DNA from: a phage
Reading direction: 5' to 3' (one strand)
DNA: 28,420 bases
NCBI GenBank assembly: GCA_014816205.1
Contig: GCA_014816205.1_4096.1
Shown here: positions 9,709 through 23,095 of the stretch, piece after piece
Position numbering within the stretch: position 1 is the first letter of the stretch
Layout: each line of letters opens with the position of its first letter
Made by a program: the position numbers and the translations under genes
Notes under the pieces: generated by a model
The model's database searches: none
What the model saw: only the letters and a program-made list of their open reading frames with translations
Told to the model about the DNA's origin: nothing

Positions 9709-10104
9709 TTAGATAACCTGGCGGCGTTTACTGTATACTGTTACACGATTACCCTTACGGTCGTGTCGGATCTCTTTCTGGTTGCGTACCAGTTCACTTG
9801 GACGCTTAAGGTTTGCCAGGTGATCCGCGTGAGTCCAAGCGGTATGGTTTGTCTGTACTTTGATATCAGAATCAGCGATAAATTCATCTTGTGCGTTAAG
9901 TACTGCCGCCAGTAAATCCGCTCGTTTTAGTTCTGCTGCTGTTAGTACTGGCTCCGGTGAATTCACAATATCAGAGATTTCTTTGAACTGTACGGCCCAG
10001 CGTTGGCCTTTCGGTGCATCTTTGCCCATGTCTTTAAATGCTGCTCCTTCCTCGCGTGCAACAATACGGGCAGCTTCACGGGTAGCGTAGAATTTAGTAA
10101 TCAT
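9709..10104 (-). CDS. hypothetical protein (131 aa); paralog of 22751..23014
   Basis: ORF track trimmed to ATG at 10104 with AGGA 8 nt upstream; shares KFYATREAARI...FKDMG and RKGNRVTVY with 22751 gene. Confidence 0.6.
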   Translation of the reverse strand: MITKFYATREAARIVAREEGAAFKDMGKDAPKGQRWAVQFKEISDIVNSPEPVLTAAELKRADLLAAVLNAQDEFIADSDIKVQTNHTAWTHADHLANLKRPSELVRNQKEIRHDRKGNRVTVYSKRRQVI

Positions 10105-10199
10105 GGTATACATCCTATTAGTTAAGTTAGTACTACAAGTTAGAGTCTATTATAAAGTACTATCTGGGCAATGTCAAATAGTACTTTAAATGGATTCTA

Positions 10200-10523
10200 T
10201 TACATATCTTTCTTACGTTTTACATCGTAGTATCGAACTGTTATTTCTTTGTTAATCTCTTTTTCGATGCGGTGAATAACTTTTTCTTTCGGGTTGAAAC
10301 CTATAACGGTTTCTTTAATGATCTCCAAGCCCGTGTATTCGCCTTGTGTGCCGTAACCGTATGTAAAGGTTTCATGTCCCAGGTCTTCCCAACGATCACC
10401 AATTAACGCAGACACGTAGCAAGAGTGGTAAGTATTGCCGTGTGAATCAGTCCACCGATTAACTTTAATGTCAAAGGAGGTTACAATTTTCAGTTCTACT
10501 TTCTGGGCAAGGATCATAGCCAT
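10200..10523 (-). CDS. hypothetical protein (107 aa); paralog of 16617..16940
   Basis: ORF track trimmed to ATG at 10523; shares RWTDSxGNTYHSC and FTYGY and KRKKD with 16617 gene. Confidence 0.6.
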   Translation of the reverse strand: MAMILAQKVELKIVTSFDIKVNRWTDSHGNTYHSCYVSALIGDRWEDLGHETFTYGYGTQGEYTGLEIIKETVIGFNPKEKVIHRIEKEINKEITVRYYDVKRKKDM

Positions 10524-10616
10524 TTTTATTTCTCTCTCTTTGTTAGGAGGGGAACCGTTTCCCCTCACTTGATGTAAACTATTATACAGTACTAAGATAC
10601 TTTGTCAATACTTATT
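10519..10616 (-). promoter_or_regulatory. PeSL-like cassette, near-identical direct repeat of 10790-10886
   Basis: About 95 bp matching the cassette at 10790-10886 except in the hairpin arms. Confidence 0.6.
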
Positions 10617-10794
10617 TTTTGGAAAGTTTACGCATTAATTCTACGCTTTCTTGTGAACGTTTTGCTACCTGGCAAGCTGCATGGACAGTAAACATTTTTG
10701 TATAGTCTGACGGTTTGTCACCGAACCGAGCGGCACGTTCACGGGCACTTGGAACTAATACGATTTCTTTCTTACAGATAGTGCATTTAGCCAT
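10612..10794 (-). CDS. small Cys-containing protein (60 aa), possible zinc-binding
   Basis: ORF track; CTIC...HAAC pattern. Confidence 0.5.
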   Translation of the reverse strand: MAKCTICKKEIVLVPSARERAARFGDKPSDYTKMFTVHAACQVAKRSQESVELMRKLSKK

Positions 10795-10886
10795 TTTTAT
10801 TTCTCTCTCTTTGTTAGGAGGGGAACCATTCCCCCTCTCGATGTAAACTATTATACAGTACTAAGATACTTTGTCAATACTTAATT
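10790..10886 (-). promoter_or_regulatory. PeSL-like cassette, direct repeat of 10519-10616
   Basis: Minus strand TTGACA...TATAAT, hairpin GGGGAATGGTTCCCC, leader AACAAAGAGAGAGAAATAAAAATG. Confidence 0.6.
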
Positions 10887-11156
10887 ATTGTAAATGTCGT
10901 GAATAGTGATAAAGTTTTTACGACCGTAAACCTGCAAATCAATATCAATGTAGTGCTTATCTAGTACATCCTCGACGCTTAACGCGGTGTCGTGGATATC
11001 TTCGTAGAATTGAGGATCTACAATCTTGCTTAAGTCATCCGGCGTTAACTCATCGTTAAGCCGTTGAACCGCCTGGATATCTGCTTCACGTTTCCAGTCT
11101 TCCAGGTTAGTAGTCAGTACTTGTTCGATTTCGTTAGCTGTCAGTAGAATCCGCAT
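10881..11156 (-). CDS. hypothetical acidic protein (91 aa)
   Basis: ORF track. Confidence 0.55.
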   Translation of the reverse strand: MRILLTANEIEQVLTTNLEDWKREADIQAVQRLNDELTPDDLSKIVDPQFYEDIHDTALSVEDVLDKHYIDIDLQVYGRKNFITIHDIYNN

Positions 11157-11225
11157 TTTAATGTTTCCTTATCAGTGGTTGATGTAAGTATTATACTCGT
11201 TTACTTTCTATTGTCAAACTATTTT

Positions 11226-11298
11226 ATCAGGGGAGGTTTTCTTATGTCTTACTCCTGGACTACTTAACGGGGTTACTTGTTTCGTTCCCCGTCCTGAT
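11226..11298 (-). promoter_or_regulatory. structured leader element, copy 1
   Basis: Closing stem ATCAGG/CCTGAT enclosing hairpin ACGGGG...CCCCGT; sits between two tandem minus-strand promoters. Confidence 0.4.
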
Positions 11299-11379
11299 GT
11301 AAAACATTATACTTGATTCTAAGTACAATGCAAGTACTTTTTTAAAAATAGTTTTCAGTACTAGCCACCAGCAAACAAT

Positions 11380-11466
11380 AGATACATTTATGCACCCTGT
11401 GGGCTGATTTGTTTCTATGCGTATATAATAGCAAAGGGACTGACCGGAGTCAATCCCTTTTTCAAT
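11380..11466. repeat. composite intergenic repeat, copy 3
   Basis: tgcaccctgtgggctgatt 11391-11409; hairpin 11436-11457 plus ttttt. Confidence 0.6.
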
Positions 11467-11471
11467 TATTT

Positions 11472-11621
11472 TTAAACTTGTTTCGGGTTGCGATAGGTGA
11501 TAGCGTTCGGGTACATTTGTTTAATGTTATTCCATGCCTGGTTAACATTGTAACCACTTGAGCGAATCAGTTGGTTGCTACCGACACCTTGAAACACTAC
11601 TTCGAATAAGAATTCTTTCAT
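11472..11621 (-). CDS. small protein (49 aa), absent from ORF track
   Basis: Hand translation codon by codon: MKEFLFEVVFQGVGSNQLIRSSGYNVNQAWNNIKQMYPNAITYRNPKQV; start overlaps upstream TGA. Confidence 0.45.
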   Translation of the reverse strand: MKEFLFEVVFQGVGSNQLIRSSGYNVNQAWNNIKQMYPNAITYRNPKQV

Positions 11622-11791
11622 GCTTTCACCTCGCTATCTGCTTTACCTTTACGCCAGGACATTACTAATTGTTCGCGTTGCCATAAGTCGAGTGATACAA
11701 AAAGTTTTGCGGTATCACTTTTAGGATACTCGCCATTAGTACCTAACCGATAAAACAGATCTTTCAGTACTGATAATTCTACTTGAATCAT
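11618..11791 (-). CDS. small protein (57 aa), absent from ORF track
   Basis: Hand translation: MIQVELSVLKDLFYRLGTNGEYPKSDTAKLFVSLDLWQREQLVMSWRKGKADSEVKA; ATGA overlap with upstream gene. Confidence 0.45.
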   Translation of the reverse strand: MIQVELSVLKDLFYRLGTNGEYPKSDTAKLFVSLDLWQREQLVMSWRKGKADSEVKA

Positions 11792-11880
11792 TTTATTACT
11801 CCTGATTGCGTTAATACTTCTACTATTGCATGAATGATCATAAGTACAGCTAAAACAATAATCATCGGATTCATTTGCAT
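11788..11880 (-). CDS. small hydrophobic peptide (30 aa), absent from ORF track
   Basis: Hand translation: MQMNPMIIVLAVLMIIHAIVEVLTQSGVIK; AAGGAG 8 nt upstream; first of three coupled small genes. Confidence 0.4.
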   Translation of the reverse strand: MQMNPMIIVLAVLMIIHAIVEVLTQSGVIK

Positions 11881-11897
11881 AAGCTGTACTCCTTATA

Positions 11898-12110
11898 TTA
11901 ATCTTTCAGCCAATGATCCTGAATGAATTTTTCGCCGGAACCTTGCTGCATTGTTTGTAACAGACGTTCACGATGAGCGGCGGCGAATTGCTCAGTACTA
12001 TGCGTTACGCCAGGCTGATAACGTGATACCCCATCCGGTCCGATGTATTGTACATCCCACGGTTTAGCGTTAGTATCAGACCATTTACGAACGATTAGTT
12101 GACCTTGCAT
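11898..12110 (-). CDS. hypothetical protein (70 aa)
   Basis: ORF track; GAGAGGAAAG upstream. Confidence 0.6.
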   Translation of the reverse strand: MQGQLIVRKWSDTNAKPWDVQYIGPDGVSRYQPGVTHSTEQFAAAHRERLLQTMQQGSGEKFIQDHWLKD

Positions 12111-12195
12111 TTTTCTTTCCTCTCAGTGGGGAGAATCATTTCTCCCCTTCATGTAACTTATTATACAGTACTATAATCTATTGTCAAATACTTTT
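12111..12195 (-). promoter_or_regulatory. PeSL-like promoter/hairpin cassette
   Basis: ggggagaatcatttctcccc hairpin; minus strand TTGACA...TATAAT. Confidence 0.5.
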
Positions 12196-12384
12196 TTAAA
12201 GTTTATGAATCAATTCTTTATCTAAGCGATAGCGTACATTATTAATGGTAACAGCATTATTTTTAATGCTACGCTGTACAGGTCCACCAGCAATAACAAA
12301 TGTTGCTTTATTACCCCGAACAATGATAGCACTTCCAGGATTACCGAAATCATCTTGTACTAAAATACTTGATAAGTTTTCCAT
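12196..12384 (-). CDS. hypothetical protein (62 aa)
   Basis: ORF track 12196..12390 trimmed to second ATG (12384), which has GAGGA at proper spacing. Confidence 0.55.
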   Translation of the reverse strand: MENLSSILVQDDFGNPGSAIIVRGNKATFVIAGGPVQRSIKNNAVTINNVRYRLDKELIHKL

Positions 12385-12462
12385 TTTCATTTCCTCTTAG
12401 TAGGGGAAGATGTTTCCCCTTGATGTAAGTACTATAACACTACTGAAAACTAAATGCAAGTA

Positions 12463-12819
12463 CTATGATAAAATCATGATAGGATATTCACTATCGATCA
12501 GTACCTCGAATCCGAAACCTTCGTACCATTCTTTAAGATTGAAGGCGTTATCTTCTCCTGTATCGCATTCTAAAATGATACAATCTGAATCATCGGCGGC
12601 ATCAATAAAGGCATTCATTAATTCGTTACCTTCACCATTGCCCCGACTATCAGGATCAACATAAAGAGAATCAATAAACGCTACACGGTCATAATCAAGA
12701 TCCGGTGCAATGATTCCACGTTTAACAAACCAGTACTGCAATTGTGCTACTTTGCCCTGTACTTGATAACCAGTGATCTCGCCATTGTCAGTAGTACGCG
12801 TGATATGTTGTATTCCCAT
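12463..12819 (-). CDS. GNAT-family acetyltransferase-like protein (118 aa)
   Basis: ORF track; RGNGEG resembles the acetyl-CoA-binding motif and WYEGFGFE the C-terminal GNAT motif; GAGGA upstream. Confidence 0.5.
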   Translation of the reverse strand: MGIQHITRTTDNGEITGYQVQGKVAQLQYWFVKRGIIAPDLDYDRVAFIDSLYVDPDSRGNGEGNELMNAFIDAADDSDCIILECDTGEDNAFNLKEWYEGFGFEVLIDSEYPIMILS

Positions 12820-12882
12820 GATTTCTATCCTCAGTTAAGATATAAAACATTATACACTATCTTTCAGTACTGTCAATACTTT

Positions 12883-13140
12883 TTATCTCATAGATCTATG
12901 CCAACAATTACGCGGGGGACGTTTAAAAGTACTATCATGATCCTCCTGGCAAGTTATGCAGTACTTACATCCCTTAACGGCCTGGCGTCGTTTCTCAGGG
13001 ATTATATCGCCGCAGTCGAGGCAATGTATCAGTGATTCTATTTGTGCGTTAATTTGCTTTCTAGCGTGGTTAACGGCGGCCTGAATCACTGCGTTGATCT
13101 CGTCTTGTTCGGCCCCGTCTTTCGCGTATCCTACTGCCAT
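12883..13140 (-). CDS. TraR/DksA-family C4 zinc-finger protein (85 aa)
   Basis: ORF track; CLDCGDIIPEKRR...CKYCITCQ matches the CxxC-x17-CxxC TraR/DksA zinc-finger pattern. Confidence 0.55.
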   Translation of the reverse strand: MAVGYAKDGAEQDEINAVIQAAVNHARKQINAQIESLIHCLDCGDIIPEKRRQAVKGCKYCITCQEDHDSTFKRPPRNCWHRSMR

Positions 13141-13471
13141 TATTTTAACCTCATTATAAAAATACTATAGTACTGTAATGCGACAATAATATTACTTGTT
13201 CTTACTTTTTCCAATCCACATGATACCACATATTCATCCCCATATGTGCGAAACGATACACCATGAAAATTTTTATACACTTGCACTACTAATCATAACC
13301 TTTCGTCTAACCAACTGCATAGAATTATACTACTTTACGCAAATTGATCAAGTATTGATCAGATCATTTTTTGATCAATATTATACAGTTACATTTGTGC
13401 ACCCTATGGGTTAGTGACGTTCTCGTCTTGATGTAAGTATTATGCCAGTACTGGATGATATTGTCAATAGA

Positions 13472-13669
13472 TTATTTTAATTTTTTTCTGTCATTGATTA
13501 ATGCTTTCAGTACTATACTAATGATTTGCAATGATTCATCAATGACTATAAAATTATTCTCTTTCATTAGATGATAGTTACCATTGATTGTATATTCTAA
13601 GGAGTACTGTTTACGTTTAATTTTTGATAATGTTTCTATTTGTTTTTGTACTGATTTCATGCTAATCAT
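13472..13669 (-). CDS. hypothetical protein (65 aa)
   Basis: ORF track; AGGA 9 nt upstream. Confidence 0.55.
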   Translation of the reverse strand: MISMKSVQKQIETLSKIKRKQYSLEYTINGNYHLMKENNFIVIDESLQIISIVLKALINDRKKLK

Positions 13670-13774
13670 TGTTAAACGTCCTGTAACGCATTCTAACGAG
13701 ATAAACGGTTTAGTACTGGCATTGTATAGGGTAATGAATTAAAGTCCACCAGCGTTAACCAGTGGGCTATAATC

Positions 13775-13918
13775 TTACATCTTGCGGATAATCTTAACAG
13801 TATCTTTCACCGATTTACCGTCCTGTTGACATTGTTCGATCATCGCGTATTGTTCTGCGGTCAGATCCTCGCCAGTTTTTGCCAGTACTGCGTCGATGAA
13901 TGAATCCAGTGCGATCAT
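13775..13918 (-). CDS. small protein (47 aa), absent from ORF track
   Basis: Hand translation: MIALDSFIDAVLAKTGEDLTAEQYAMIEQCQQDGKSVKDTVKIIRKM; AGAGAGAAATAAA leader; promoter cassette 13919-14017. Confidence 0.45.
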   Translation of the reverse strand: MIALDSFIDAVLAKTGEDLTAEQYAMIEQCQQDGKSVKDTVKIIRKM

Positions 13919-14017
13919 TTTATTTCTCTCTTAGGTTAAGTTAACTACTGTTTATAAAACTTATTATACAGTACTATCAAACGTTGTCAATATCTTTAAT
14001 AGTACTGGTAATATATT

Positions 14018-14197
14018 TTAGCGGTAATCGTCGTATGCTTTATTCACCTGGCGAATGTAACTTTCAAAGGCTTCGTCTACCGTTTCATACTCCCGAACAT
14101 AATCACCATAGGAAACTACATACATACCTTTTTGATCTTCAAACGACATGATGATAGAATCCAGGCCGATGATTTCAGTTTTTGCGATGATAGCCAT
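14018..14197 (-). CDS. hypothetical protein (59 aa)
   Basis: ORF track 14018..14260 trimmed to ATG at 14197 with AAGGA upstream. Confidence 0.55.
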   Translation of the reverse strand: MAIIAKTEIIGLDSIIMSFEDQKGMYVVSYGDYVREYETVDEAFESYIRQVNKAYDDYR

Positions 14198-14289
14198 TTT
14201 TAATTCCTTAGTAGTGTAGTTGATAAAAGTTATTATGCCAGTACTATCAATCAGTGTCAATAGCTTTGATAGTACTGTGATAATATTTT

Positions 14290-14502
14290 TTAGTTAATAA
14301 TAGTCAGTGTAAAATTGTAATCACCACAGCGATATAGCACGTTATTCCCAAATGTTCCAACTAATCGCACATCACACAAAACTCCGGTTTTTTCTTTTAC
14401 CTCCTTGATACTTGTAACTCCTGTAATATCTTTATTAAAGTATTCATGATCTGAAAATAAAACTTGTTTTGCATTTTTTAATTTCGACCGGATATTAGCC
14501 AT
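14290..14502 (-). CDS. hypothetical protein (70 aa)
   Basis: ORF track; start context AAAATGGCT. Confidence 0.6.
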   Translation of the reverse strand: MANIRSKLKNAKQVLFSDHEYFNKDITGVTSIKEVKEKTGVLCDVRLVGTFGNNVLYRCGDYNFTLTIIN

Positions 14503-14595
14503 TTTGTTTTCTCTCTGTTAGTGGGGAGAACTATTCTCCCCTTCATGTAAAACATTATACAGTACTATAATCTATTGTCAAACTATTTTTTAATA
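14503..14595 (-). promoter_or_regulatory. PeSL-like promoter/hairpin cassette (consensus example)
   Basis: Minus strand TTGACA, 16 bp, TATAAT, GTTTTACATGAAG, hairpin GGGGAGAATAGTTCTCCCC, then AGAGAGAAAACAAAATG. Confidence 0.6.
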
Positions 14596-14937
14596 TTATT
14601 CGAAATCTTCTGGACCGGACTGATAATCATCTTCACCGTATGCACTTTCTAACCGCTCGCCAGTTTGATCATCAGTTAGTGAGTCATCCTCATAGTTCAC
14701 GTCTACGCCTACAATGTAAAACTGGCTATCGTCTGGATCATTGAAATTAATTTTCTGAATGTTTACAATAACTGTATTGATGCCCAGGACACAGCCATCA
14801 GCCGTTACAAAGTACTGATATTTTTCACAACCGCCTGAATTGAAACCGTAATTGATTTCGGCCCGACCATCATTTAAACGCAGTGCCTGAGCGATGATTT
14901 CGTTTTCAAAGTTAGATTGAGCAATTGAGATAGTCAT
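14596..14937 (-). CDS. hypothetical protein with acidic C-terminus (113 aa)
   Basis: ORF track; AAGGA upstream. Confidence 0.6.
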   Translation of the reverse strand: MTISIAQSNFENEIIAQALRLNDGRAEINYGFNSGGCEKYQYFVTADGCVLGINTVIVNIQKINFNDPDDSQFYIVGVDVNYEDDSLTDDQTGERLESAYGEDDYQSGPEDFE

Positions 14938-15071
14938 GATTCGTTTCCTTATTACCAGGGGAAACCGTTTCCCCTTTCGATGTAAAACATTATACGCCTA
15001 TTGAGATAGTTTGCAAGTACTTTTTATCAAATACTTTAAAATAGTTTTCAGTACTCAAACATTATACAATA

Positions 15072-15160
15072 GATACACTCCTGCACCCTGTGGGCTAGTG
15101 AGCTATCTCTCAATGAATATATAATAGCAAAATGGCTGACCGAAGTCAACCACTTTTTTC
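15072..15160. repeat. composite intergenic repeat, copy 4 (variant hairpin)
   Basis: tgcaccctgtgggctagtg 15082-15100; hairpin tggctgaccgaagtcaacca 15133-15152 plus tttttt; arm changes preserve pairing relative to other copies. Confidence 0.55.
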
Positions 15161-15162
15161 AT

Positions 15163-16616: not shown

Positions 16617-16940
16617 TTAAAGATCTTTTTTGCGTTTAACATTCTGTACAGTACAATGCAACGGGATATTAAGATCATTGCACAAACGATAGAGGGAGGT
16701 TTCAACAGTATCAAGCCCGTCTACTGATTCCTTTAAGAGTGATACCGCCGTTTGTTGATATGCATCCTCATAGCCATAAGTAAATGATTCAACCGCCAGA
16801 TCATTCAAGCCGTTATCCAGTTCAACGCTTACATGACAAGAATGATAAGTATTGCCATATGAATCAGTCCAACGTTTACCGTCAACATTGATTGCATGGA
16901 TTGCAGCCAGGGAAACGGTGTTGATGATAGTTTTAGCCAT
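16617..16940 (-). CDS. hypothetical protein (107 aa); paralog of 10200..10523
   Basis: ORF track; shared RWTDSYGNTYHSC and FTYGY and KRKKD motifs. Confidence 0.6.
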   Translation of the reverse strand: MAKTIINTVSLAAIHAINVDGKRWTDSYGNTYHSCHVSVELDNGLNDLAVESFTYGYEDAYQQTAVSLLKESVDGLDTVETSLYRLCNDLNIPLHCTVQNVKRKKDL

Positions 16941-16968: not shown

Positions 16969-17042
16969 GTCTTGATAAAATCTATTATGCCAGTACTATC
17001 AAACTATGTCAATAGTACTGTGATAATATTTTTACTTACTTT
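16969..17042 (-). repeat. about 74-bp direct repeat, copy A (promoter module)
   Basis: Identical to 17263-17336; contains RC of TTGACA and CATAAT. Confidence 0.65.
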
Positions 17043-17262: not shown

Positions 17263-17336
17263 GTCTTGATAAAATCTATTATGCCAGTACTATCAAACTA
17301 TGTCAATAGTACTGTGATAATATTTTTACTTACTTT
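17263..17336 (-). repeat. about 74-bp direct repeat, copy B
   Basis: Identical to 16969-17042; the two copies flank the 17032..17244 gene. Confidence 0.65.
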
Positions 17337-17469: not shown

Positions 17470-17554
17470 ATTAGTTTCCTTGTAGTGGGGAGAATCATTT
17501 CTCCCCTTGATGTAATGTATTATACTTTATTCGATTTACTTTGCAAGTACTTTT
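17470..17554 (-). promoter_or_regulatory. PeSL-like promoter/hairpin cassette
   Basis: ggggagaatcatttctcccc hairpin; RC of TATAAT and TTGCAA. Confidence 0.55.
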
Positions 17555-17782
17555 TTAATTTAATTCATCCAGGCAAAGGATACGTTCCACACCAAGATCC
17601 GTTAAACTAATGGTCGGTACTTGATAGGTTTCAATGTATGCTACACTTGCCCACTGACCGAACTCATTAACGGCCCAGGTATTCATTGCATTTTGCAATT
17701 CCACACCTTCCTTGTTGGTAATGACTGCAACTACTTGTTCGTTGCCAGTAGTACCAGATACGCGAGTAATGATAATAGCCAT
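17555..17782 (-). CDS. hypothetical protein (75 aa)
   Basis: ORF track. Confidence 0.6.
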   Translation of the reverse strand: MAIIITRVSGTTGNEQVVAVITNKEGVELQNAMNTWAVNEFGQWASVAYIETYQVPTISLTDLGVERILCLDELN

Positions 17783-18231
17783 TTTTTAATTCCTATTCAG
17801 TAGTTGATGTATGTATTATGTCAGTACTTAAAACTATTGTCAAACTATTTTTTAAAATTTATCAATGATTGATGCCGTTTCATTGATAGTCTTGCCGTGT
17901 TTTGCACACGCGATAACTGCTTTAAATTCCTTTGATGACCAATCTTTCTTGCTGCATACTGACATTACTTGTAACGTGAAACAATCCAGTTCATAAGTAT
18001 TCATCTTTAAATCCTCAGTTAGTTAAGGTGTCTCGCCTTGATGTAATTAATTATACGCTAATCTCTTAATCGTGCAAGTACTTTTTATTACTTTTTGTAA
18101 AATACTTTAAACACTCTCAATCGCTTTCTAACGTCCTTAACGCCACCAGCTAGGGCAATGTATCAGATAATCAGTTTAATGCGTTAGAATCGATTCTAGG
18201 CGGTGCTAGTGGACTGGAATACTATAGACAC

Positions 18232-18258
18232 AAAAAAGCCCACTGTTTAAGGTGGGCT
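18232..18258 (-). terminator. rho-independent terminator
   Basis: Hairpin agcccactgtttaaggtgggct followed on minus strand by TTTTTT; directly downstream of 18280.. gene. Confidence 0.65.
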
Positions 18259-18279
18259 AGTGATTCAGTACTTTAATTG

Positions 18280-18762
18280 TTATGCTTCAACTTTGCGATG
18301 AGCTTCGATCCATTCCTCGCGAGTCAATCCGCTTTCTTTGATAGCATCCAGTACTACCGCAATGCAGTTACCGCGTACAGGAATCATATGTTCTTCCCCG
18401 TTATCAAGTACTACAGTAACACGTTCTTGAATCCATTTTTTAGGTTTAGATTCTGGCTTATCTTCACCATACTTAACCGCCAGGGCTTTATGTGCCATTT
18501 CTACAACTACTTCCAGATCCAATCCAGACACCGCCGCCTGGATACTTTCGATTGTTGCTTGCAGTTCGGCTTCACGGGCTTTTTTCTGTTCTTCCAGTTC
18601 TGCTACCTTTTTGGCTTGCAGTTCTTTAGCTTCACTGTACGCAATGTTAAAATTGTTGCGTACTGCTTTCATGGTATCGTTATCCAGGTCAGCCAGCAAT
18701 TCAGCAGCAATAACAGTATCGTTTGAAATCAGTGCTTTCAGGAATGATTTTACATTAGCCAT
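18280..18762 (-). CDS. hypothetical protein (160 aa) with Glu/Lys/Ala-rich central segment
   Basis: ORF track 18280..18777 trimmed to ATG at 18762 with GAGGA 9 nt upstream. Confidence 0.6.
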   Translation of the reverse strand: MANVKSFLKALISNDTVIAAELLADLDNDTMKAVRNNFNIAYSEAKELQAKKVAELEEQKKAREAELQATIESIQAAVSGLDLEVVVEMAHKALAVKYGEDKPESKPKKWIQERVTVVLDNGEEHMIPVRGNCIAVVLDAIKESGLTREEWIEAHRKVEA

Positions 18763-18816
18763 TTTATAAATCCTCAATTAAAGTTTAGTTTACGTTTATT
18801 AGTGTATCAAAGTTTT

Positions 18817-18878
18817 ATCGACGTGTCCAGTTTTTCGTTCGACTTACTGGCGGTCTACTTAGTGCTCCCCGTCTTGAT
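18817..18878 (-). promoter_or_regulatory. structured leader element, copy 3 (long 5' UTR)
   Basis: Minus strand begins ACATCAAGACGGGGA and contains TAAGTAGACC, as in copies at 11226 and 22074; promoter TTGACA/TAGAAAT at 18886-18914. Confidence 0.4.
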
Positions 18879-18965
18879 GTAATACATTCTACGCCTTTTT
18901 GTGGTAATGTCAACTACTATTTTAAAACTATTTTTAAAGTATGCAGTACTACGATAATACAAAAA

Positions 18966-18992
18966 CAAAAAAGCCCACTGTATAAGTGGGCT
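18966..18992 (-). terminator. rho-independent terminator (duplicate of the 18232 module)
   Basis: Hairpin agcccactgtataagtgggct followed on minus strand by T-run; downstream of 19010.. gene. Confidence 0.65.
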
Positions 18993-19009
18993 AGTGATTC
19001 AGTACTATA

Positions 19010-19309
19010 TTATAAACAGTTAATTACTCCGGTGTGCGTTACTTTCTCAGTATCCATAACAGTGACCGAACCGCGTTTAGTACTTGCATCGTAATAAATT
19101 GTCGTGCTACCTTTTTCGTCTTCTTCATGGAACGGCCCGTTTTTAAATGCTTCTGGCTGGATCTCTAAATCCTTTAAAACAATCTCGCCAGTACTTTCAT
19201 TGGTCATCGCTACAGTGCACTGAATGAATTTTTCACTACTTACATCTAACGACGCATTAACAGCGAAAGAGGAAACAGATAAAGCCAGGGCGATGATTGC
19301 AATTTTCAT
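19010..19309 (-). CDS. secreted or periplasmic small protein with N-terminal signal peptide (99 aa)
   Basis: ORF track; MKIAIIALALSVSSFAVNA has a hydrophobic core and an AxA-type cleavage site. Confidence 0.6.
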   Translation of the reverse strand: MKIAIIALALSVSSFAVNASLDVSSEKFIQCTVAMTNESTGEIVLKDLEIQPEAFKNGPFHEEDEKGSTTIYYDASTKRGSVTVMDTEKVTHTGVINCL

Positions 19310-19393
19310 TTGATTATCCTTAGTTACCAGGGGGAACCGCTCCCCCTTGCGATGTAAAATATTATACAGTACTAAAAACTATTATCAAGTACT
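19310..19393 (-). promoter_or_regulatory. PeSL-like promoter/hairpin cassette
   Basis: gggggaaccgctccccc hairpin; RC of TATAAT. Confidence 0.5.
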
Positions 19394-19630
19394 TTATGAT
19401 TTTTTATAAAACATTTCGGCAGTGATATTTTTACCCGTTGGTTGTACTTTATCCAGAATTTTTTGATGCCCTGGCCGTCCAAATGAATATGATCCGTAAA
19501 CCGTAAACCAGTAGTTACCCTCAGTGTTTACATGTACAGCACAATAGGGAACGCCCCGCGATTCATCACTAGTAAAGTGTGATACCGTTCCCGTTACATT
19601 CGCAGACGTTGATTTGATTTGTTCGAGCAT
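19394..19630 (-). CDS. hypothetical protein (78 aa)
   Basis: ORF track. Confidence 0.6.
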   Translation of the reverse strand: MLEQIKSTSANVTGTVSHFTSDESRGVPYCAVHVNTEGNYWFTVYGSYSFGRPGHQKILDKVQPTGKNITAEMFYKKS

Positions 19631-19738
19631 TTTCTTATTCCTTAGTTACCAGGGGAACCGCTCCCCCTATGCAAAACATTATACGCGTTTAAAAACTAAT
19701 TGCAAGTATTTTAATAAAAAGTATTTGAAAAATAATTG

Positions 19739-19767
19739 TTGACAACTGCATCCAGTACTGGCATAAT
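19739..19767 (+). promoter_or_regulatory. plus-strand sigma70-like promoter
   Basis: ttgaca 19739-19744, 17-bp spacer, cataat 19762-19767; no plus-strand ORF follows. Confidence 0.45.
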
Positions 19768-19773
19768 TACTAC

Positions 19774-19880
19774 ATAAAGACGATACAGTCACTAACCCAC
19801 AGGGTGCATAGATCCGTCTATTAAATGATTCAGTACTGAAAAAGTAACGGGGAGTTATTATCTCCCCGCGTTGTTATTTG
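19774..19880 (+). ncRNA. candidate small non-coding RNA (about 100 nt)
   Basis: Runs from the 19739 promoter to hairpin cggggagttattatctccccg (19848-19868) plus U-rich tail; contains the 19-nt motif; only a 4-codon ORF. Confidence 0.3.
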
Positions 19881-20095
19881 GTAAGGTATAAACAGAAGTC
19901 ACCTTTATTTGCTACGCCGCCAGTGTAACGCGATGAATAGTTAGAAATATCTTGTACTTCTGCTATTACCAGTGTATCATCATTCATTTCGTCGCAGAAG
20001 CAAACGGCTGGATCTTTTACGCCGATATTGTCGGCATGTTCCCGCATAGATTTAACCAGTGCTTCCAGTTGAGAAAGAGTAGTGATATTAGCCAT
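19874..20095 (-). CDS. hypothetical protein (73 aa)
   Basis: ORF track 19874..20125 trimmed to ATG at 20095. Confidence 0.55.
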   Translation of the reverse strand: MANITTLSQLEALVKSMREHADNIGVKDPAVCFCDEMNDDTLVIAEVQDISNYSSRYTGGVANKGDFCLYLTK

Positions 20096-20179
20096 TGTAT
20101 TTTCCTCATTACCAGGGAGAACCATTTCTCCCCTCTATGTAAACTATTATACAGTACTAAAAACTAATTGCAAGTACTT
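20096..20179 (-). promoter_or_regulatory. PeSL-like promoter/hairpin cassette
   Basis: gggagaaccatttctccc hairpin; RC of TATAAT and TTGCAA. Confidence 0.5.
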
Positions 20180-20365
20180 TTAATTAAATTTTGTACCGTC
20201 CAGTAATGAAGCATTACGCATCATTCGCCCAGCACGATCCCAGCTAGTAGGATCGGGAATCCCTTGCAACTCGTTAGGGGAGATCTCAATCTTGATCCCT
20301 ACATTGATAACAGTCATTCCAGCCTTTGCAGCTTGCTCTCGGATAACCTCAGATAATGTTGTCAT
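20180..20365 (-). CDS. hypothetical protein (61 aa)
   Basis: ORF track 20180..20407 trimmed to ATG at 20365 with AGGAG 8 nt upstream; track M1 is a TTG. Confidence 0.55.
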   Translation of the reverse strand: MTTLSEVIREQAAKAGMTVINVGIKIEISPNELQGIPDPTSWDRAGRMMRNASLLDGTKFN

Positions 20366-20426
20366 GATTAAAGCTCCTGTATCGCTTATAATGTTTGTCA
20401 GTACCAATATAAAGTATTATACGCCT

Positions 20427-20639
20427 TTATTGCTTAGTGTCCAGTACTTTTAAAACATAATCAAAGACACCACGCACATCATTGATCATCGCCTGGCGGT
20501 TAGCAGGTAACGCATCAGGATCGCCACTATCCCAGGCATTAATAAAGCCACCTAAATCATGGAATACTTTATTCTGTAAGCCGATTAACTGTAATTCTTT
20601 TTCTTCAAGCTCTTTGATGCGGTCGATTAAATCACTCAT
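20427..20639 (-). CDS. hypothetical protein (70 aa)
   Basis: ORF track 20427..20675 trimmed to ATG at 20639 with GAGGATTATCTAATG context. Confidence 0.55.
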   Translation of the reverse strand: MSDLIDRIKELEEKELQLIGLQNKVFHDLGGFINAWDSGDPDALPANRQAMINDVRGVFDYVLKVLDTKQ

Positions 20640-20656
20640 TAGATAATCCTCAGTAC

Positions 20657-20941
20657 TTAACTGTAAGATCCGCAACGGTCGCAGTAGTGCCCGTCCTCGT
20701 CATCGTCAACGAATTGACCGACGAAATGATCTACTTTCGCTTTGAGGTTATTATAATCGTTTTCTACTTCCTTTAAACGTTCCTGGTAGTATTCCAGTGC
20801 CTTAAGATACGCCGCCTCAGTCGTTTTCTCACGCATAGCTAAATTCATTCCACGCGTTTCATCAAATAGCCAATAACCATCGGTGCATTGACTGATAGAT
20901 AATGACTTGCTTAGTACTGTATAGTTAATTACTTTACCCAT
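20657..20941 (-). CDS. hypothetical protein (94 aa)
   Basis: ORF track; same GAGGATTATCTAATG start context as 20427 gene; C-terminal HYCDRCG. Confidence 0.6.
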   Translation of the reverse strand: MGKVINYTVLSKSLSISQCTDGYWLFDETRGMNLAMREKTTEAAYLKALEYYQERLKEVENDYNNLKAKVDHFVGQFVDDDEDGHYCDRCGSYS

Positions 20942-21033
20942 TAGATAATCCTCAGTAAAGGCGGGAACTATTCCCCGCCTCGATATAAAGTATTATACGT
21001 TAATCTAACTACAATGCAAGTACTTTTTAAATT
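20942..21033 (-). promoter_or_regulatory. PeSL-like promoter/hairpin cassette
   Basis: gcgggaactattccccgc hairpin; RC of TATAAT and TTGCAT. Confidence 0.5.
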
Positions 21034-21300
21034 TTATAATCCTTTTACTGCATCAGGTGCGACTACGCCATCAATGTATTGAACATCGTTTTCCACTTCA
21101 CGGGCGGCATCATTCAGCAGATCAAAATTAAATTCCATTTCTTCCAGATCATCGAAATCAGGCTCATAACCATTAATTGTTGAATAAGTCCAAGTACCTT
21201 TTTCATAAGTTACGACACTTACATCAGGGAAGAAATCTTGCACATGATCCATCGCATCCCGAACCAATTGATGTGCAGTTGTGATATTTAAAGTTTTCAT
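21034..21300 (-). CDS. hypothetical acidic protein (88 aa)
   Basis: ORF track. Confidence 0.6.
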   Translation of the reverse strand: MKTLNITTAHQLVRDAMDHVQDFFPDVSVVTYEKGTWTYSTINGYEPDFDDLEEMEFNFDLLNDAAREVENDVQYIDGVVAPDAVKGL

Positions 21301-21393
21301 TTTGTTGCCCTTTTAGTGTGAGCGGGGAACCATTCCCCGCCTCGATATAAAGTATTATACGCTTTTAAACTTAGTTTGCAAGTACTTTTTGAA
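21301..21393 (-). promoter_or_regulatory. PeSL-like promoter/hairpin cassette
   Basis: gcggggaaccattccccgc hairpin; RC of TATAAT and TTGCAA. Confidence 0.5.
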
Positions 21394-22005
21394 TTAATAT
21401 TCGATTGATTCTACTACGCCATCAATAACATTGAATTGATACTCGTTACCCTCAATCAGTGCTACGATGTTTTCAGTAGTGAATTGATCCTCATATGCAT
21501 TCTCTAAATCACGGTACAACTTGCGTGACAATTCACGAATAGTTTCAGTGAGTAGTTCCTCAAGCTCATTAACTAACGTTTCTTGTTTTGCGGTTAAATC
21601 AGTGTAAGCCGATTCAATGTACCCGCTTACAGTGTTCTCATGCGAGTAGTGAGAGTGAGAACGCTTTACACTCATCGCCAAATCATCTTCATTCAGCAGG
21701 TGACGGATTGAGCGATACTTAGTTAATGCTCTTACCTTGCGTAAAAACTTCACTGCGTCAACGTGGTCAGTACTGATTGATGCACCGTCACCCTGGGACC
21801 AAAAACCACTGAATTGTATTTCAGCGTCATTAATGCCATATTCCGGTAGTACTGTTTCTTTATAGTATTCAATTTCACTTTCAGAAAAATAATCATCGTT
21901 TAAGTTTTTTTCACGTTCCCGAACCAGTTCGATAGCTGACGTTTTTTGTTCTGCGTTCAATTCAGAAAAAGCCATAACATAAGTAGTAGTAGTGATAGTT
22001 TTCAT
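21394..22005 (-). CDS. hypothetical protein (203 aa)
   Basis: ORF track; GAGGG 8 nt upstream; preceded by an unusually long multi-promoter leader. Confidence 0.65.
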   Translation of the reverse strand: MKTITTTTYVMAFSELNAEQKTSAIELVREREKNLNDDYFSESEIEYYKETVLPEYGINDAEIQFSGFWSQGDGASISTDHVDAVKFLRKVRALTKYRSIRHLLNEDDLAMSVKRSHSHYSHENTVSGYIESAYTDLTAKQETLVNELEELLTETIRELSRKLYRDLENAYEDQFTTENIVALIEGNEYQFNVIDGVVESIEY

Positions 22006-22073
22006 TTTGTAACCCTCATTCAGTAGTTGATGTAAGTATTATACGCTTTTAAAAACAATTGTCAAACTATTTT

Positions 22074-22147
22074 ATCAGGGGAGTTTTTCGTGTGCCTTAC
22101 TCCTGGGCTACTTAACGGGCAGTTACTTATTTCGTCCCCCGTCCTGA
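22074..22147 (-). promoter_or_regulatory. structured leader element, copy 2
   Basis: About 85% identical to 11226-11298, same closing stem ATCAGG/CCTGAT; again between two tandem promoters. Confidence 0.4.
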
Positions 22148-22230
22148 TGTAAAACATTATACGCCTTTAAACATAGTTTGCAAGTACTTTTTATCAAATA
22201 GTTTTCAGTACTGAATAGTAAAAAAAAGTA

Positions 22231-22259
22231 TTGACAGCACTATCCAGTACTGGTATAAT
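22231..22259 (+). promoter_or_regulatory. plus-strand sigma70-like promoter
   Basis: ttgaca 22231-22236, 17-bp spacer, tataat 22254-22259; two copies of the 19-nt motif downstream in opposite orientation. Confidence 0.45.
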
Positions 22260-22382
22260 ATACCCCATGACAACAGCTAACCCACCGGGTGCACAATTGT
22301 AACTGTACTAAACTACTTTTTCTATAGATACACTCCCGCACCCTATGGGCTACGGCTTATCTGCCAATGAATACATTATGCC

Positions 22383-22413
22383 AGTATTGACAAAATAAGT
22401 CAATACTGGCAAT
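22383..22413. other. perfect 12-bp-stem hairpin
   Basis: gccagtattgac aaaataa gtcaatactggc; stem contains TTGACT, which with CATAAT 17 bp away forms a minus-strand promoter-like site. Confidence 0.5.
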
Positions 22414-22433
22414 TGTAAAGATTTGTAAACTGA

Positions 22434-22664
22434 TTATACTGCAATCGCGTCCAGGCTATAATAATAATAAGTGCCGTATTGGTGTACTTTATTACCTTTT
22501 ATTTCAGTACTGAATGAATCCGAACGATTGGCATATGATGTTAATTTAAAGTACTTTGTTTTGCTGATACGTTGCCATACACCGCAGATCCGCTGTAAGT
22601 AAGTAGTTTTATTAGTGGTAGTATCTTTTACGGTTTTAACTTCAGTCATATACATATTGGTCAT
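22434..22664 (-). CDS. hypothetical protein (76 aa)
   Basis: ORF track; AAGGAG upstream. Confidence 0.6.
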   Translation of the reverse strand: MTNMYMTEVKTVKDTTTNKTTYLQRICGVWQRISKTKYFKLTSYANRSDSFSTEIKGNKVHQYGTYYYYSLDAIAV

Positions 22665-22750
22665 TTTTTTACTCCTTGCTTTAGTGGGGAACTATTCCCC
22701 ACCTGATATAAAGTATTATACGCGTTTAAACTTAGTTTGCAAGTACTTTT
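22665..22750 (-). promoter_or_regulatory. PeSL-like promoter/hairpin cassette
   Basis: ggggaactattcccc hairpin; RC of TATAAT and TTGCAA. Confidence 0.5.
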
Positions 22751-23014
22751 TTATAGTACTGCTATCTTTTTAGTACGGTACACGGTAACACGATTCCCCT
22801 TACGGTCGAGCTTTATTTCTACCACTCGACGCGATACACTAGCAGGACTTTTTAAAGCTGATAGCCAGTACTGTAATGATCTGGCTGTACTACGCTTTAC
22901 AATGGCCCAACGTTTACCACTTGCCGATCCCGCTCCCATATCTTTAAACGTTGCCCCGTCCTGGCGTGCGGCGATCCGAGCTTGTTCACGCGTCGCAAAA
23001 TACTTAATATTCAT
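22751..23014 (-). CDS. hypothetical protein (87 aa); short paralog of 9709..10104
   Basis: ORF track; shared FATREQARIAARQDGATFKDMG and DRKGNRVTVY motifs; AAGGG upstream. Confidence 0.6.
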   Translation of the reverse strand: MNIKYFATREQARIAARQDGATFKDMGAGSASGKRWAIVKRSTARSLQYWLSALKSPASVSRRVVEIKLDRKGNRVTVYRTKKIAVL

Positions 23015-23050
23015 GCTGTTACCCTTATCGTTGGTGTATGAATAAAATCC

Positions 23051-23073
23051 TATTATAAAGTACTATCACCGTG
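23051..23073. promoter_or_regulatory. palindromic operator-like site in promoter region
   Basis: Perfect palindrome agtactatcaccgtgatagtact just upstream of TATAAT; approximate coordinates. Confidence 0.35.
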
Positions 23074-23095
23074 ATAGTACTTTAAATCTATTCTA

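What the first reader, a model, noticed from the sequence alone, without database searches (positions are those of the whole stretch)
9709..23095. Duplicated gene pairs far apart, one under a perfect palindromic operator-like site
Seen in sequence: 9709..10104 and 22751..23014 share N-terminal KFYATRE(A/Q)ARIxAR..GAxFKDMG and C-terminal RKGNRVTVY; the second lacks the central segment. 10200..10523 and 16617..16940 share RWTDSxGNTYHSC, FTYGY and KRKKD. Upstream of 22751..23014 the promoter contains the perfect 22-bp palindrome AGTACTATCACCGTGATAGTACT; its half-site TATCACCG resembles lambda-type operator half-sites, which may be coincidental. The paralog at 10114-10199 carries only a degenerate version. 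Inference: a repressor-controlled early gene and its unregulated or differently regulated duplicate.
Basis: partly seen in the sequence, partly recalled or inferred. Interest (0 to 1): 0.5.

Follow-up and report, generated by a model that had tools for sequence, protein, structure and literature searches.

The report
Promoter stem-loop cassette, not an operator
The two duplicated gene pairs are real, but the "operator-like" palindrome is a shrunken copy of a promoter-plus-hairpin cassette repeated about 35 times in this giant E. coli phage's early region, so the finding is largely ordinary.

Summary
The window is the early region of a 121Q/PBECO4-like (Asteriusvirus) jumbo coliphage. In the relative vB_Ec-M-J this region is annotated as a direct terminal repeat.

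Both paralog pairs are real (BLASTP E=3e-19 and 1e-27). The palindrome is real and longer than reported: 14+1+14 bp at 23056-23084, abutting a consensus TATAAT.

It is not a conserved operator:
- **It is private to this genome.** There is one copy in the window, none in IMG/VR, and none in 50,697 GenBank phage genomes.
- **Only the outer arms are conserved.** In 12 aligned orthologous sites AAAGTACTAT and GATAGTACTTTATAAT are invariant. The centre varies from 6 to 11 nt here, and is 13 nt in the paralog, where it holds a consensus TTGACA.
- **The arms are generic.** They are two copies of AGTACT, which occurs 156 times in the window against 9 expected. They sit where six other promoters in the window carry them, flanking the -35.
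- **The perfect symmetry comes from a 2-bp deletion** in the variable loop.
- **No DNA-binding domain was found** in any of 58 window proteins scanned against Pfam.

Best reading: a member of a PeSL-like composite promoter/stem-loop cassette family that has lost its -35. The duplicates probably do differ in promoter strength, but repressor control is unsupported.

The clade-wide AGTACT excess is the more interesting lead.

The parts
9709..10104 (-). Paralog A1, long form (131 aa, phrog_8127, function unknown)
   Evidence: BLASTP vs A2 E=3e-19. phrog_8127 E=2.7e-35. 100% identical protein in slurp01, ECO103 4-12-1 and CRJP21.
22751..23014 (-). Paralog A2, short form (87 aa). It lacks the central ~45-residue linker.
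   Evidence: An orthologous 88-aa CDS is annotated in slurp01, phAPEC6, vB_Ec-M-J, SHEFM2K, PBECO4 and 121Q.
10200..10523 (-). Paralog B1 (107 aa, phrog_6246, function unknown)
   Evidence: BLASTP vs B2 E=1e-27. phrog_6246 E=1.6e-36.
16617..16940 (-). Paralog B2 (107 aa, phrog_6246)
23056..23084 (.). Perfect inverted repeat TAAAGTACTATCAC-G-GTGATAGTACTTTA (14+1+14). It is made of two AGTACT boxes 17 bp apart plus a collapsed loop.
   Evidence: I9. RNA fold -17.3 kcal/mol, z=-4.8.
23052..23057 (-). Consensus -10 (TATAAT) of the A2 cassette. There is no -35: best match GTACTA, 2/6.
10149..10187 (-). A1 cassette. Arm AAAGTACTAT (10187-10178), -35 TTGACA (10177-10172), arm ATAGTACTTT (10163-10154), -10 TATAAT (10154-10149).
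   Evidence: The arms plus the upstream stop region are 93-95% identical to the A2 cassette, against 53% for the 5'UTR and 65-71% for the coding DNA.
9668..9686 (-). Canonical intrinsic terminator right after A1 (GGCGGGATCAGTTCCCGCC + TTTTTT)
23096..23335 (-). Upstream gene (DUF7249, 79 aa). Its transcript would read through the palindrome into A2.
   Evidence: Pfam PF23907 E=6.4e-12.
23386..23413 (-). Class A early promoter (AAAGTAC-TTGCAA-16-TATAAT) of the DUF7249 gene. It is the likely source of read-through transcription of A2.
16984..17019 (-). Class B promoter of B2: AGTACT-A-TTGACA-N9-AGTACT-GG-CATAAT (AGTACTAT / GATAGTACT arms around the -35)
17278..17313 (-). Identical class B promoter in front of the unrelated gene 17032-17244
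   Evidence: (I2/I3).
14232..14276 (-). Class B promoter, AGTACT boxes 31 bp apart
13963..14006 (-). Class B promoter, AGTACT boxes 31 bp apart
6517..6552 (-). Class B promoter, AGTACT boxes 22 bp apart, -10 TATGAT
10581..10608 (-). Promoter of B1 (TTGACA-16-TATAAT, AGTACT box next to the -10), followed by a G/C-rich 5'UTR hairpin (GAGGGGAAACGGTTCCCCTC). Nearly identical to the cassette at 10850-10877.

Best explanation
**What it is.** The palindrome is the stem-loop part of a composite early-promoter/stem-loop intergenic cassette. The closest described analogue is the PeSL of T4-type phages. Between about 4.8 and 23.9 kb of the window, roughly 35 small genes each carry a stereotyped 80-95-nt upstream cassette. 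It runs: stop codon, A-rich tract, AGTACT box, -35, spacer with a second AGTACT box 7-8 nt upstream of the -10, TATAAT, often a G/C-rich 5'UTR hairpin, ribosome-binding site, ATG.

**The subclass.** In seven cassettes the two boxes are extended to inverted arms, AGTACTAT ... (G)ATAGTACT. These arms enclose the -35 hexamer in the loop of a potential hairpin. I call these class B. The A1 cassette is an intact member (TTGACA-17-TATAAT).

**What happened at A2.** The A2 cassette is a decayed member. In all Asteriusvirus orthologs the loop has lost a usable -35. In this genome a further 2-bp (TG) deletion brought CAC opposite GTG, which made the repeat perfect.

**Likely consequence (inferred).**
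- A1 is an autonomous, strongly transcribed early unit with its own terminator.
- A2 is transcribed weakly from a -10-only promoter, and/or by read-through from the promoter at 23413-23386.
- The AU-rich hairpin would then sit in the read-through RNA, perhaps as an attenuator or insulator.

**The paralogs.** They are old duplications of genes of unknown function, confined to RaK2-like jumbo phages. Their promoter arms are kept far more similar than the genes themselves, by selection or by recombination between cassettes.

**Shown versus inferred.** Shown: sequence architecture, copy numbers, conservation pattern, absence elsewhere. Inferred: promoter strengths, read-through, any hairpin function, and the mechanism of dispersal.
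For: **Setting.**
- The window is Asteriusvirus early-region DNA.
- The orthologous site lies inside the 21.5-kb direct terminal repeat annotated in vB_Ec-M-J.

**Repeated cassettes.**
- The scan found 96 promoter-like sites against 52.9 +/- 7 in shuffles.
- 34 sites on the - strand match at least 10/12 consensus positions.
- Per-gene table of cassettes.

**Class B architecture.**
- It recurs at 17313, 17019, 14276, 14006, 6552, 10185 and 23081, with AGTACT boxes 22, 22, 31, 31, 22, 24 and 17 bp apart.
- vB_Ec-M-J has 7 such sites in one copy of its terminal repeat.

**Ortholog alignment.**
- The arms and the -10 are invariant in all 14 sequences.
- The loop is 6, 8, 10 or 11 nt in orthologs and 13 nt in the paralog.
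- No ortholog has a -35.

**Privacy of the perfect palindrome.**
- No exact copy in IMG/VR.
- No exact copy in 50,697 phage records. The best hit, phage A4, carries the 2-nt insertion.

**A likely ancestral form.**
- Yersinia phage fHe-Yen9-03 (Eneladusvirus) has the same arms around TTGCAT-17-TATAAT.
- There they sit in front of a gene with no evident similarity to A1/A2 (by eye; not compared with a tool).

**Cassette versus gene conservation.** Cassette arms are 93-95% identical between the paralogs, against 53% for the 5'UTR and 65-71% for coding DNA.

**Hairpin potential.** All versions fold at -17 to -20 kcal/mol, z = -4.8 to -8.

**Published analogue.** PeSL stem-loops are reported between, or overlapping, the -35 and -10 boxes (PMC2839356; PMC4122927).
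Against: - No expression data exist for this phage group. Promoter activity, read-through and hairpin function are all inferred.
- The invariance of the arms and of TATAAT across about 38 genomes and both paralogs is stronger than expected for a dead promoter. Something is under selection. A protein-binding role for the AGTACT boxes fits that as well as a hairpin role does.
- The arms never vary, so there is no covariation to support a hairpin.
- PeSLs were defined in T4-type phages, with terminator activity and mini-circle formation shown experimentally. Neither can be tested here.
- The stem is AU-rich and the - strand version was not called terminator-like by the scan.
Confidence: 0.68

Rival explanations
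1. **Global AGTACT-box regulator.** The (C)AGTACT(G) boxes are binding sites for a clade-specific or host dimeric DNA-binding protein. Boxes placed just upstream of the -10 and next to the -35 would let it modulate all early promoters, for example to shut them off. The A2 palindrome would simply be a site where two boxes lie unusually close.
For: - AGTACT occurs 156 times against 9.3 expected in the window.
- It is 7-12-fold enriched in vB_Ec-M-J, 121Q and Klebsiella phage RaK2, and runs at 6.3 per kb in the Yersinia phage locus.
- Sites are retained between the window and vB_Ec-M-J in 131/147 cases. Control hexamers 10 nt away are retained in 209/292 (Fisher p=2e-5).
- Placement is position-specific: 17 cassettes have a box 7-8 nt upstream of the -10, and at least 12 have one fused to the -35.
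- Density is 11 per kb in non-coding DNA against 3.6 per kb in coding DNA.
Against: - No candidate protein was identified.
- Most sites lie inside genes, far from promoters.
- Box-to-box spacing varies from 17 to 31 bp, so the pair is not a fixed bipartite operator.
- The enrichment could reflect DNA modification, packaging or another DNA-level function unrelated to transcription.
- No literature was found on it.
Confidence: 0.15
2. **Dedicated operator.** A specific repressor binds the 23-29-bp palindrome and controls A2, while A1 escapes control.
For: - A perfect palindrome overlaps the promoter.
- Palindromes of this size are typical of dimeric repressor sites (my own knowledge).
- The A1 version is interrupted.
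Against: - It is private to one genome.
- The centre is not conserved, and spacing varies by up to 7 bp among orthologs and the paralog.
- It is a single copy.
- Its right half is a generic promoter element.
- No HTH or repressor domain was found in 58 window proteins.
- TATCAC/GTGATA spacing is 13 bp, not the 17 bp of lambda operators (my own knowledge).
Confidence: 0.04
3. **Terminator, attenuator or RNA-processing hairpin.** The repeat acts mainly in RNA, ending or processing the upstream DUF7249 transcript. The TATAAT would be incidental, or simply part of the extended stem.
For: - Stable hairpins are predicted in every ortholog, with symmetry extending into the flanking A- and T-rich tracts.
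- In ECO103-type sequences the inner pairs are G-U wobbles, which work only on the sense RNA.
- vB_Ec-M-J has a perfect CCAGTACTAT-A-ATAGTACTGG palindrome between the convergent genes EcMJ_570 and EcMJ_571, flanked by A- and T-tracts.
- PeSL stem-loops act as terminators (PMC2839356).
Against: - The stem has only 3 G-C pairs.
- The - strand tail (TAATAGGA) is not U-rich, so the scan called the site only on the + strand.
- slurp01 and CMSTMSU break the inner pairs.
- The same region uses canonical GC-rich terminators elsewhere.
Confidence: 0.13

Closest known systems
PeSLs (promoter-early stem-loops) of T4-type phages RB49/phi1, PST and nt-1 (Arbiol et al. 2010, PMC2839356; Comeau et al. 2014, PMC4122927)
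   Same: [quoted passage not shown]
- An A/T-rich tract, a near-consensus sigma-70 promoter and a stem-loop whose position varies relative to the -35 and -10 (between them, overlapping either, or downstream).
- G-run/C-run hairpins.
- Dense repetition in regions full of small genes of unknown function.
- Cassettes more conserved than the genes they flank.
   Different: - The host phage is a RaK2-like jumbo phage, not a T4-type phage in the strict sense. In the relative vB_Ec-M-J the region is annotated as a direct terminal repeat.
- One stem class is built from the clade's hyper-abundant AGTACT box and is AU-rich.
- Terminator activity and mini-circle formation, shown experimentally for PeSLs, are untested here.
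Lambda-type CI/Cro operators (OR/OL)
   Same: A partial sequence resemblance (TATCACCG on the + strand) and overlap with a promoter.
   Different: - Here TATCAC and GTGATA span 13 bp. Lambda operators are 17 bp (my own knowledge).
- Single copy rather than tandem triplets.
- No repressor gene detected.
- The resemblance disappears in all relatives.
Morons: autonomous promoter-gene-terminator units in phage genomes
   Same: A1 has its own consensus promoter and its own canonical terminator.
   Different: Here almost every gene in the region has such a promoter, and the promoters share homologous cassette sequence. That fits cassette-based shuffling better than isolated insertion.
SlmA binding site of E. 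coli (GTGAGTACTCAC; recalled from memory)
   Same: The central hexamer, AGTACT, is identical.
   Different: The phage motif is flanked by C/A/T at -1 and G/A/T at +1. The G at -1 that SlmA sites need is the rarest base there (8 of 156).

Membership tests
Lambda-type repressor operator | 17-bp pseudo-symmetric site with consensus half-sites at fixed spacing | tested here: not met
   TATCAC-C-GTGATA spans 13 bp. The 17-bp requirement is from my own knowledge of lambda OR/OL.
Lambda-type repressor operator | Several operator copies in the same control region or genome | tested here: not met
   One match in the window with up to 3 mismatches. None in IMG/VR or in 50,697 phage records. The rest of this phage's own genome was not available.
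Lambda-type repressor operator | Cognate DNA-binding repressor encoded nearby | tested here: not met
   No HTH or repressor Pfam domain in 58 window proteins. Novel folds among the unannotated small proteins cannot be excluded.
Lambda-type repressor operator | Site conserved, with fixed geometry, in related phages | tested here: not met
   Inter-arm spacer is 6, 8, 10, 11 or 13 nt with unrelated sequences.
PeSL-like promoter/stem-loop cassette | Sigma-70-like early promoter with an A/T-rich upstream tract in a short conserved intergenic cassette | tested here: met
   The A2 copy itself keeps only the -10 and the A/T tract.
PeSL-like promoter/stem-loop cassette | Stem-loop within the cassette, at a variable position relative to the -35 and -10 | tested here: met
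   AGTACTAT/ATAGTACT arms enclose the -35 in 7 cassettes. G/C-rich (G-run ... C-run) hairpins lie downstream of the -10 in about 20 cassettes. GC-rich hairpins enclose TTGACT in 4 more. Folds.
PeSL-like promoter/stem-loop cassette | Many copies clustered in a variable region of small genes of unknown function, differing between close relatives | tested here: met
   About 35 cassettes in 19 kb. Relatives cover only 30-61% of 9000-24000 at 90-95% identity, in many separate pieces.
PeSL-like promoter/stem-loop cassette | Stem-loop terminates transcription; cassettes recombine to give mini-circles | not testable with these tools
   These are experimental properties (PMC2839356). The one suggestive case: phage EJP2 has, at the A2 position, a 125-aa long form with an A2-like C-terminus and an A1-like N-terminus and 5'UTR. 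It could be an ancestral intermediate or a recombinant.
PeSL-like promoter/stem-loop cassette | Host phage is a T4-type myovirus | tested here: not met
   The relatives are Asteriusvirus. So this is an analogue in another lineage, not a member of the described set.
Intrinsic (rho-independent) terminator | GC-rich stem immediately followed by a U-tract on the transcribed strand | tested here: inconclusive
   The scan calls the site only on the + strand, with 3 G-C pairs of 13. The extended fold ends in UUUUAUU.

The most novel reading that the evidence does not exclude
The hyper-abundant, selectively retained (C)AGTACT(G) box of RaK2-like jumbo phages is the recognition site of an undescribed genome-wide DNA-binding or DNA-modifying system. 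Its fixed placement beside the -35 and -10 of the early promoters would make it a global switch for early transcription. The A2 palindrome would then be an unusually strong double site, operator-like after all, but belonging to a genome-wide system rather than a gene-specific one.
Probability: 0.12. Interest if true: 0.6.

Novelty: new member of a known kind. Interest (0 to 1): 0.25.

Why it matters
For the finding as stated, little. It removes a false lead (a lambda-like operator in a lytic jumbo phage). It also shows that the early region of Asteriusvirus phages is organised as PeSL-like promoter/stem-loop cassettes. That extends a concept described for T4-type phages to the RaK2-like jumbo phages, and gives a simple account of how small early genes are duplicated and re-promoted.

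The by-product may matter more. A palindromic hexamer is 7-17-fold over-represented across several jumbo-phage genera. It is preferentially retained between relatives and positioned precisely in early promoters. It has no published explanation that I could find. It is directly testable by restriction digestion, methylation-aware sequencing and protein pull-down.

Tried and rejected
**Function of the A family (phrog_8127): nothing found.**
- No Pfam hit, no NCBIfam hit above cut-off, no PDB sequence match.
- The AlphaFold2 model from 24 sequences reached pLDDT 71.6 and pTM 0.31. It shows a beta-alpha-beta-beta N-domain and a C-terminal beta-hairpin.
- Foldseek against the PDB gave no hit with E <= 0.001.

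**Function of the B family (phrog_6246): nothing found.** No Pfam, NCBIfam or PDB match.

**Known RNA families: none.**
- No Rfam family at gathering score anywhere in the window.
- Only chance-level hits at the palindrome and at one CCCAYAGGGTGC element.
- No tRNA genes.

**Literature: nothing on the motif.**
- No paper links AGTACT, CAGTACTG or the promoter strings to these phages.
- Searches for 121Q/PBECO4 + promoter and phAPEC6 + promoter returned no paper on Asteriusvirus promoters.
- The one paper I read, on the related phage CBB, describes RpoD-like early promoters with UP-like elements but not this motif.

**Consensus RNA structure for the CCCAYAGGGTGC elements:** weak, with no covariation.

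**Ideas rejected from memory, not tested**
- SlmA site: the flanks are wrong.
- LexA, CRP and tetO resemblances: spacing or orientation do not fit.
- Mom-type modification target: the sequence does not fit.

**A reading I revised.** I first read the EJP2 gene at the A2 position as a cassette swap. The protein comparison shows a chimera-like long form, which could equally be ancestral.

Full report
**1. Where the window comes from**

Megablast of 9000-24000 finds 159 phage records. The best are 350-385-kb E. coli jumbo phages of the 121Q/PBECO4 group (Asteriusvirus). They match at 90-95% identity but cover only 30-61% of the query, in many pieces.

Essentially all genes are on the - strand. In vB_Ec-M-J the orthologous stretch lies inside the annotated 21.5-kb direct terminal repeat. 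Genes there are small and each is separated by about 80-100 nt. A paper on the related phage CBB describes such regions as early, with RpoD-like promoters preceded by UP-like elements (PMC5259590).

**2.

- Pair A (9709-10104 and 22751-23014) aligns with E=3e-19. The short copy lacks 45 central residues.
- Pair B (10200-10523 and 16617-16940) aligns end to end with E=1e-27.
- Each pair falls in one PHROG family of unknown function.
- An all-against-all BLAST shows these are two of several paralog families in the window. There are also tandem arrays at 1-4375 and 25747-27356.
- The palindrome is real. It is a perfect 14+1+14 inverted repeat at 23056-23084, unique in the window even with three mismatches allowed. 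Its last two bases overlap a consensus TATAAT.

**3. The palindrome is a variant of a repeated cassette**

Listing every TATAAT on the - strand, and then every gene's upstream region, shows a stereotyped cassette in front of about 35 genes between 4.8 and 23.9 kb.
- The common form (class A) is AAAAAGTAC-TTGCAA-N16-TATAAT-gttTTACAT. It is often followed by a G-run ... C-run hairpin (for example GGGGAATAGTTCCCC or GGGGGAATGGTTCCCC), a ribosome-binding site and the ATG.
- The promoter scan finds 96 sites against 52.9 +/- 7 in shuffles. Of these, 34 on the - strand match at least 10/12 positions.
- AGTACT occupies two fixed positions. In at least 12 cassettes it is fused to the -35. In 17 cassettes it lies 7-8 nt upstream of the -10.

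In seven cassettes the two boxes are extended into inverted arms, AGTACTAT ... (G)ATAGTACT, with the -35 hexamer in the loop. I call these class B.
- They start at 17313, 17019, 14276, 14006, 6552, 10185 and 23081.
- The boxes are 22, 22, 31, 31, 22, 24 and 17 bp apart.
- The A1 cassette (10185) is an intact member with TTGACA-17-TATAAT, 12/12.
- The A2 cassette (23081) is the only one with no -35 (GTACTA, 2/6).
- Its right half, TGATAGTACT, is the same string found upstream of the -10 in five other class B promoters.

**4. Relatives show the perfect symmetry is an accident**

I fetched the orthologous site from 12 Asteriusvirus genomes and aligned them with both window copies. ATTTAAAGTACTAT and GATAGTACTTTATAATAG are essentially invariant in all 14 sequences. 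Only 121Q differs, at one base of each flank, outside the arms and the -10. The stretch between them varies:

| Sequence | Inter-arm stretch |
|---|---|
| This window (A2) | CACGGT |
| ECO103, UB, 121Q, TH47 | TGCACGGT |
| slurp01, vB_Ec-M-J | TGCACGGG |
| CMSTMSU | TGCACGAT |
| phAPEC6, PBECO4, Salmonella SD-2 | CATTTTTTGC |
| SHEFM2K | CATTTTTTTGC (one more T) |
| EJP2 | CATTCTATGC |
| Paralog A1 | TTGACATTGCCCA |

- No ortholog has a usable -35.
- The window differs from its nearest type by a 2-bp (TG) deletion. That deletion brings CAC opposite GTG.
- The exact palindrome is absent from IMG/VR and from 50,697 GenBank phage genomes. The best hit, phage A4, has the two extra bases.
- Yersinia phage fHe-Yen9-03 belongs to another genus. 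It has the same arms around TTGCAT-17-TATAAT, in front of a gene with no evident similarity to A1/A2 (judged by eye, not compared with a tool).
- That looks like the intact ancestor. The Asteriusvirus TGCACGGT form looks like it with 4 bp deleted.

The lambda-like TATCAC half-site is therefore not conserved, and the half-site spacing is not fixed. I could find no DNA-binding domain in 58 window proteins.

**5. What is conserved, and what it may do**

Between the two paralogs the cassette arms, plus the last codon and stop of the upstream gene, are 93-95% identical. The 5'UTRs are 53% identical and the coding DNA 65-71%. So the cassette is maintained independently of the genes.

Every version folds into a hairpin of -17 to -20 kcal/mol (z = -4.8 to -8). 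The symmetry extends into a mirrored -10 and the flanking A/T tracts.

vB_Ec-M-J also has a perfect CCAGTACTAT-A-ATAGTACTGG palindrome between two convergent genes, a terminator-like setting.

This matches the published description of PeSLs. Those are conserved cassettes from stop codon to ATG, with strong sigma-70 promoters and stem-loops that may lie between or overlap the -35 and -10 boxes. They are proposed to attenuate upstream transcription and to mediate gene shuffling (PMC2839356; PMC4122927).

I therefore read the site as a PeSL-like cassette whose promoter has decayed.
- A1 is an autonomous unit with a consensus promoter and a canonical terminator at 9686-9668.
- A2 probably depends on a weak -10-only promoter and/or read-through from 23413-23386.
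- These functional steps are inferences. There are no expression data.

**6. History of the paralogs**

The A family is confined to RaK2-like jumbo phages.
- Asteriusvirus genomes have two loci each. They show four when both terminal repeats are in the record.
- RaK2, K64-1, GAP32 and the Erwinia, Serratia and Yersinia relatives have one locus.
- The family alignment shows a conserved N-terminal domain of about 40 residues, a linker of variable length and a conserved C-terminal motif. The short form is a linker deletion.
- EJP2 carries a 125-aa long form at the A2 position. Its C-terminus matches A2, and its N-terminus, centre and 5'UTR match A1. It is either an intermediate or a recombinant.
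- The B paralogs sit behind different cassette classes. Near-identical cassettes precede unrelated genes: 17019 and 17313, and 10586 and 10855. This fits cassette-level recombination.

**7. The AGTACT excess**

- AGTACT occurs 156 times in the window against 9.3 expected. It is absent from 1-4573.
- The extended consensus is CAGTACTG. Density is 11 per kb in non-coding DNA and 3.6 per kb in coding DNA, with no reading-frame preference.
- It is among the two most over-represented hexamers, with CAGTAC, in vB_Ec-M-J (206 and 184 per 50 kb) and 121Q (133). In Klebsiella phage RaK2 (114) it ranks third, behind CAGTAC and ACCACC. The Yersinia phage locus has 63 per 10 kb.
- Between the window and vB_Ec-M-J, 131 of 147 sites are retained. 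That compares with 68% of all hexamers and 69-74% of control hexamers 10 nt away (Fisher p=2e-5). There were 16 losses and 14 gains.
- I found no literature on it.

This is why the palindrome's arms are so conserved. It also leaves open a global protein-binding role for the boxes, which is the main rival and the most novel reading.

**8. Limits**

- I had only the window for this phage.
- From relatives I had about 110 kb in four 50-kb pieces plus short loci.
- Pfam cannot exclude new DNA-binding folds among the small unannotated proteins.
- The arms never vary, so hairpin and protein-site readings cannot be separated by covariation.

**Verdict**

The feature is a new example of a known kind of element.

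Noticed in passing
Whole window from 4574 to 28366; also L013, L014 (vB_Ec-M-J), L015 (RaK2), L016 (121Q), L017 (Yersinia phage fHe-Yen9-03): AGTACT (extended CAGTACTG) is 7-17-fold over-represented across RaK2-like jumbo phages. It is retained preferentially between relatives (131/147 against about 70% for controls) and sits at fixed positions in early promoters. G at -1 is avoided, so it is not an SlmA site. I found no published explanation.
   Followed up: partly
window 1-4375 and 25747-27356: Two tandem arrays of paralogous 60-90-aa genes with overlapping stop and start codons. The first (about 20 copies) contains no AGTACT at all (Poisson p=7e-8 at the coding density). It corresponds to the array just past the terminal repeat in vB_Ec-M-J, which is also an AGTACT desert.
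   Followed up: partly
- strand boxes at 22348, 15093, 13409, 11402, 8129 and 5867; + strand boxes at 19797 and about 22290: Eight copies of a non-coding element with no ORF. Each has its own strong promoter, often with TTGACT inside a 12-bp-stem hairpin and a TG-extended -10. About 30 nt downstream lies an invariant CCCA(C/T)(A/C)GGGTGC box followed by TGTATCTAT. Two copies converge at 22230-22410. This could be a small RNA, a leader or a DNA site. There is no Rfam match and no convincing consensus fold.
   Followed up: partly
window 11200-11330 and 22050-22180 (- strand): Paralogous non-coding leaders upstream of genes 10881-11156 and 21394-22005. Each has a class A promoter, a long hairpin (CAGGACGGGG...CCCGTTAAGTAG.CCAGGAG), and then a third consensus promoter, TTGACA-16-TATAATACTTACATCAAC.
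   Followed up: no
window 24425-25747: About 1.3 kb with no ORF of 40 aa or more on the coding strand. By synteny it corresponds to the left physical end of the terminal repeat in vB_Ec-M-J, where the first 1.76 kb of the record has no CDS. The window may therefore span a collapsed terminal-repeat junction.
   Followed up: no
window 9392-9646, 12883-13140, 12463-12819, 8204-8788: The few recognisable early proteins are a ParE-like toxin domain (E=6e-11), a DksA/TraR zinc finger (E=1.5e-10), a GNAT acetyltransferase (E=4e-9) and a weak, sub-threshold protein-kinase-like match. The ParE-like gene has no promoter of its own and sits directly behind the A1 terminator.
   Followed up: no
L014 about 23181 (vB_Ec-M-J 333180): A perfect 21-bp palindrome, CCAGTACTAT-A-ATAGTACTGG, flanked by A- and T-tracts, lies between the convergent genes EcMJ_570 and EcMJ_571. 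It is an AGTACT-based hairpin in a terminator-like position.
   Followed up: no
window 22231-22259 (+) and 19739-19767 (+): Consensus or near-consensus sigma-70 promoters (12/12 and 11/12, both with a TG-extended -10) on the otherwise non-coding + strand, pointing antisense to the early genes.
   Followed up: no
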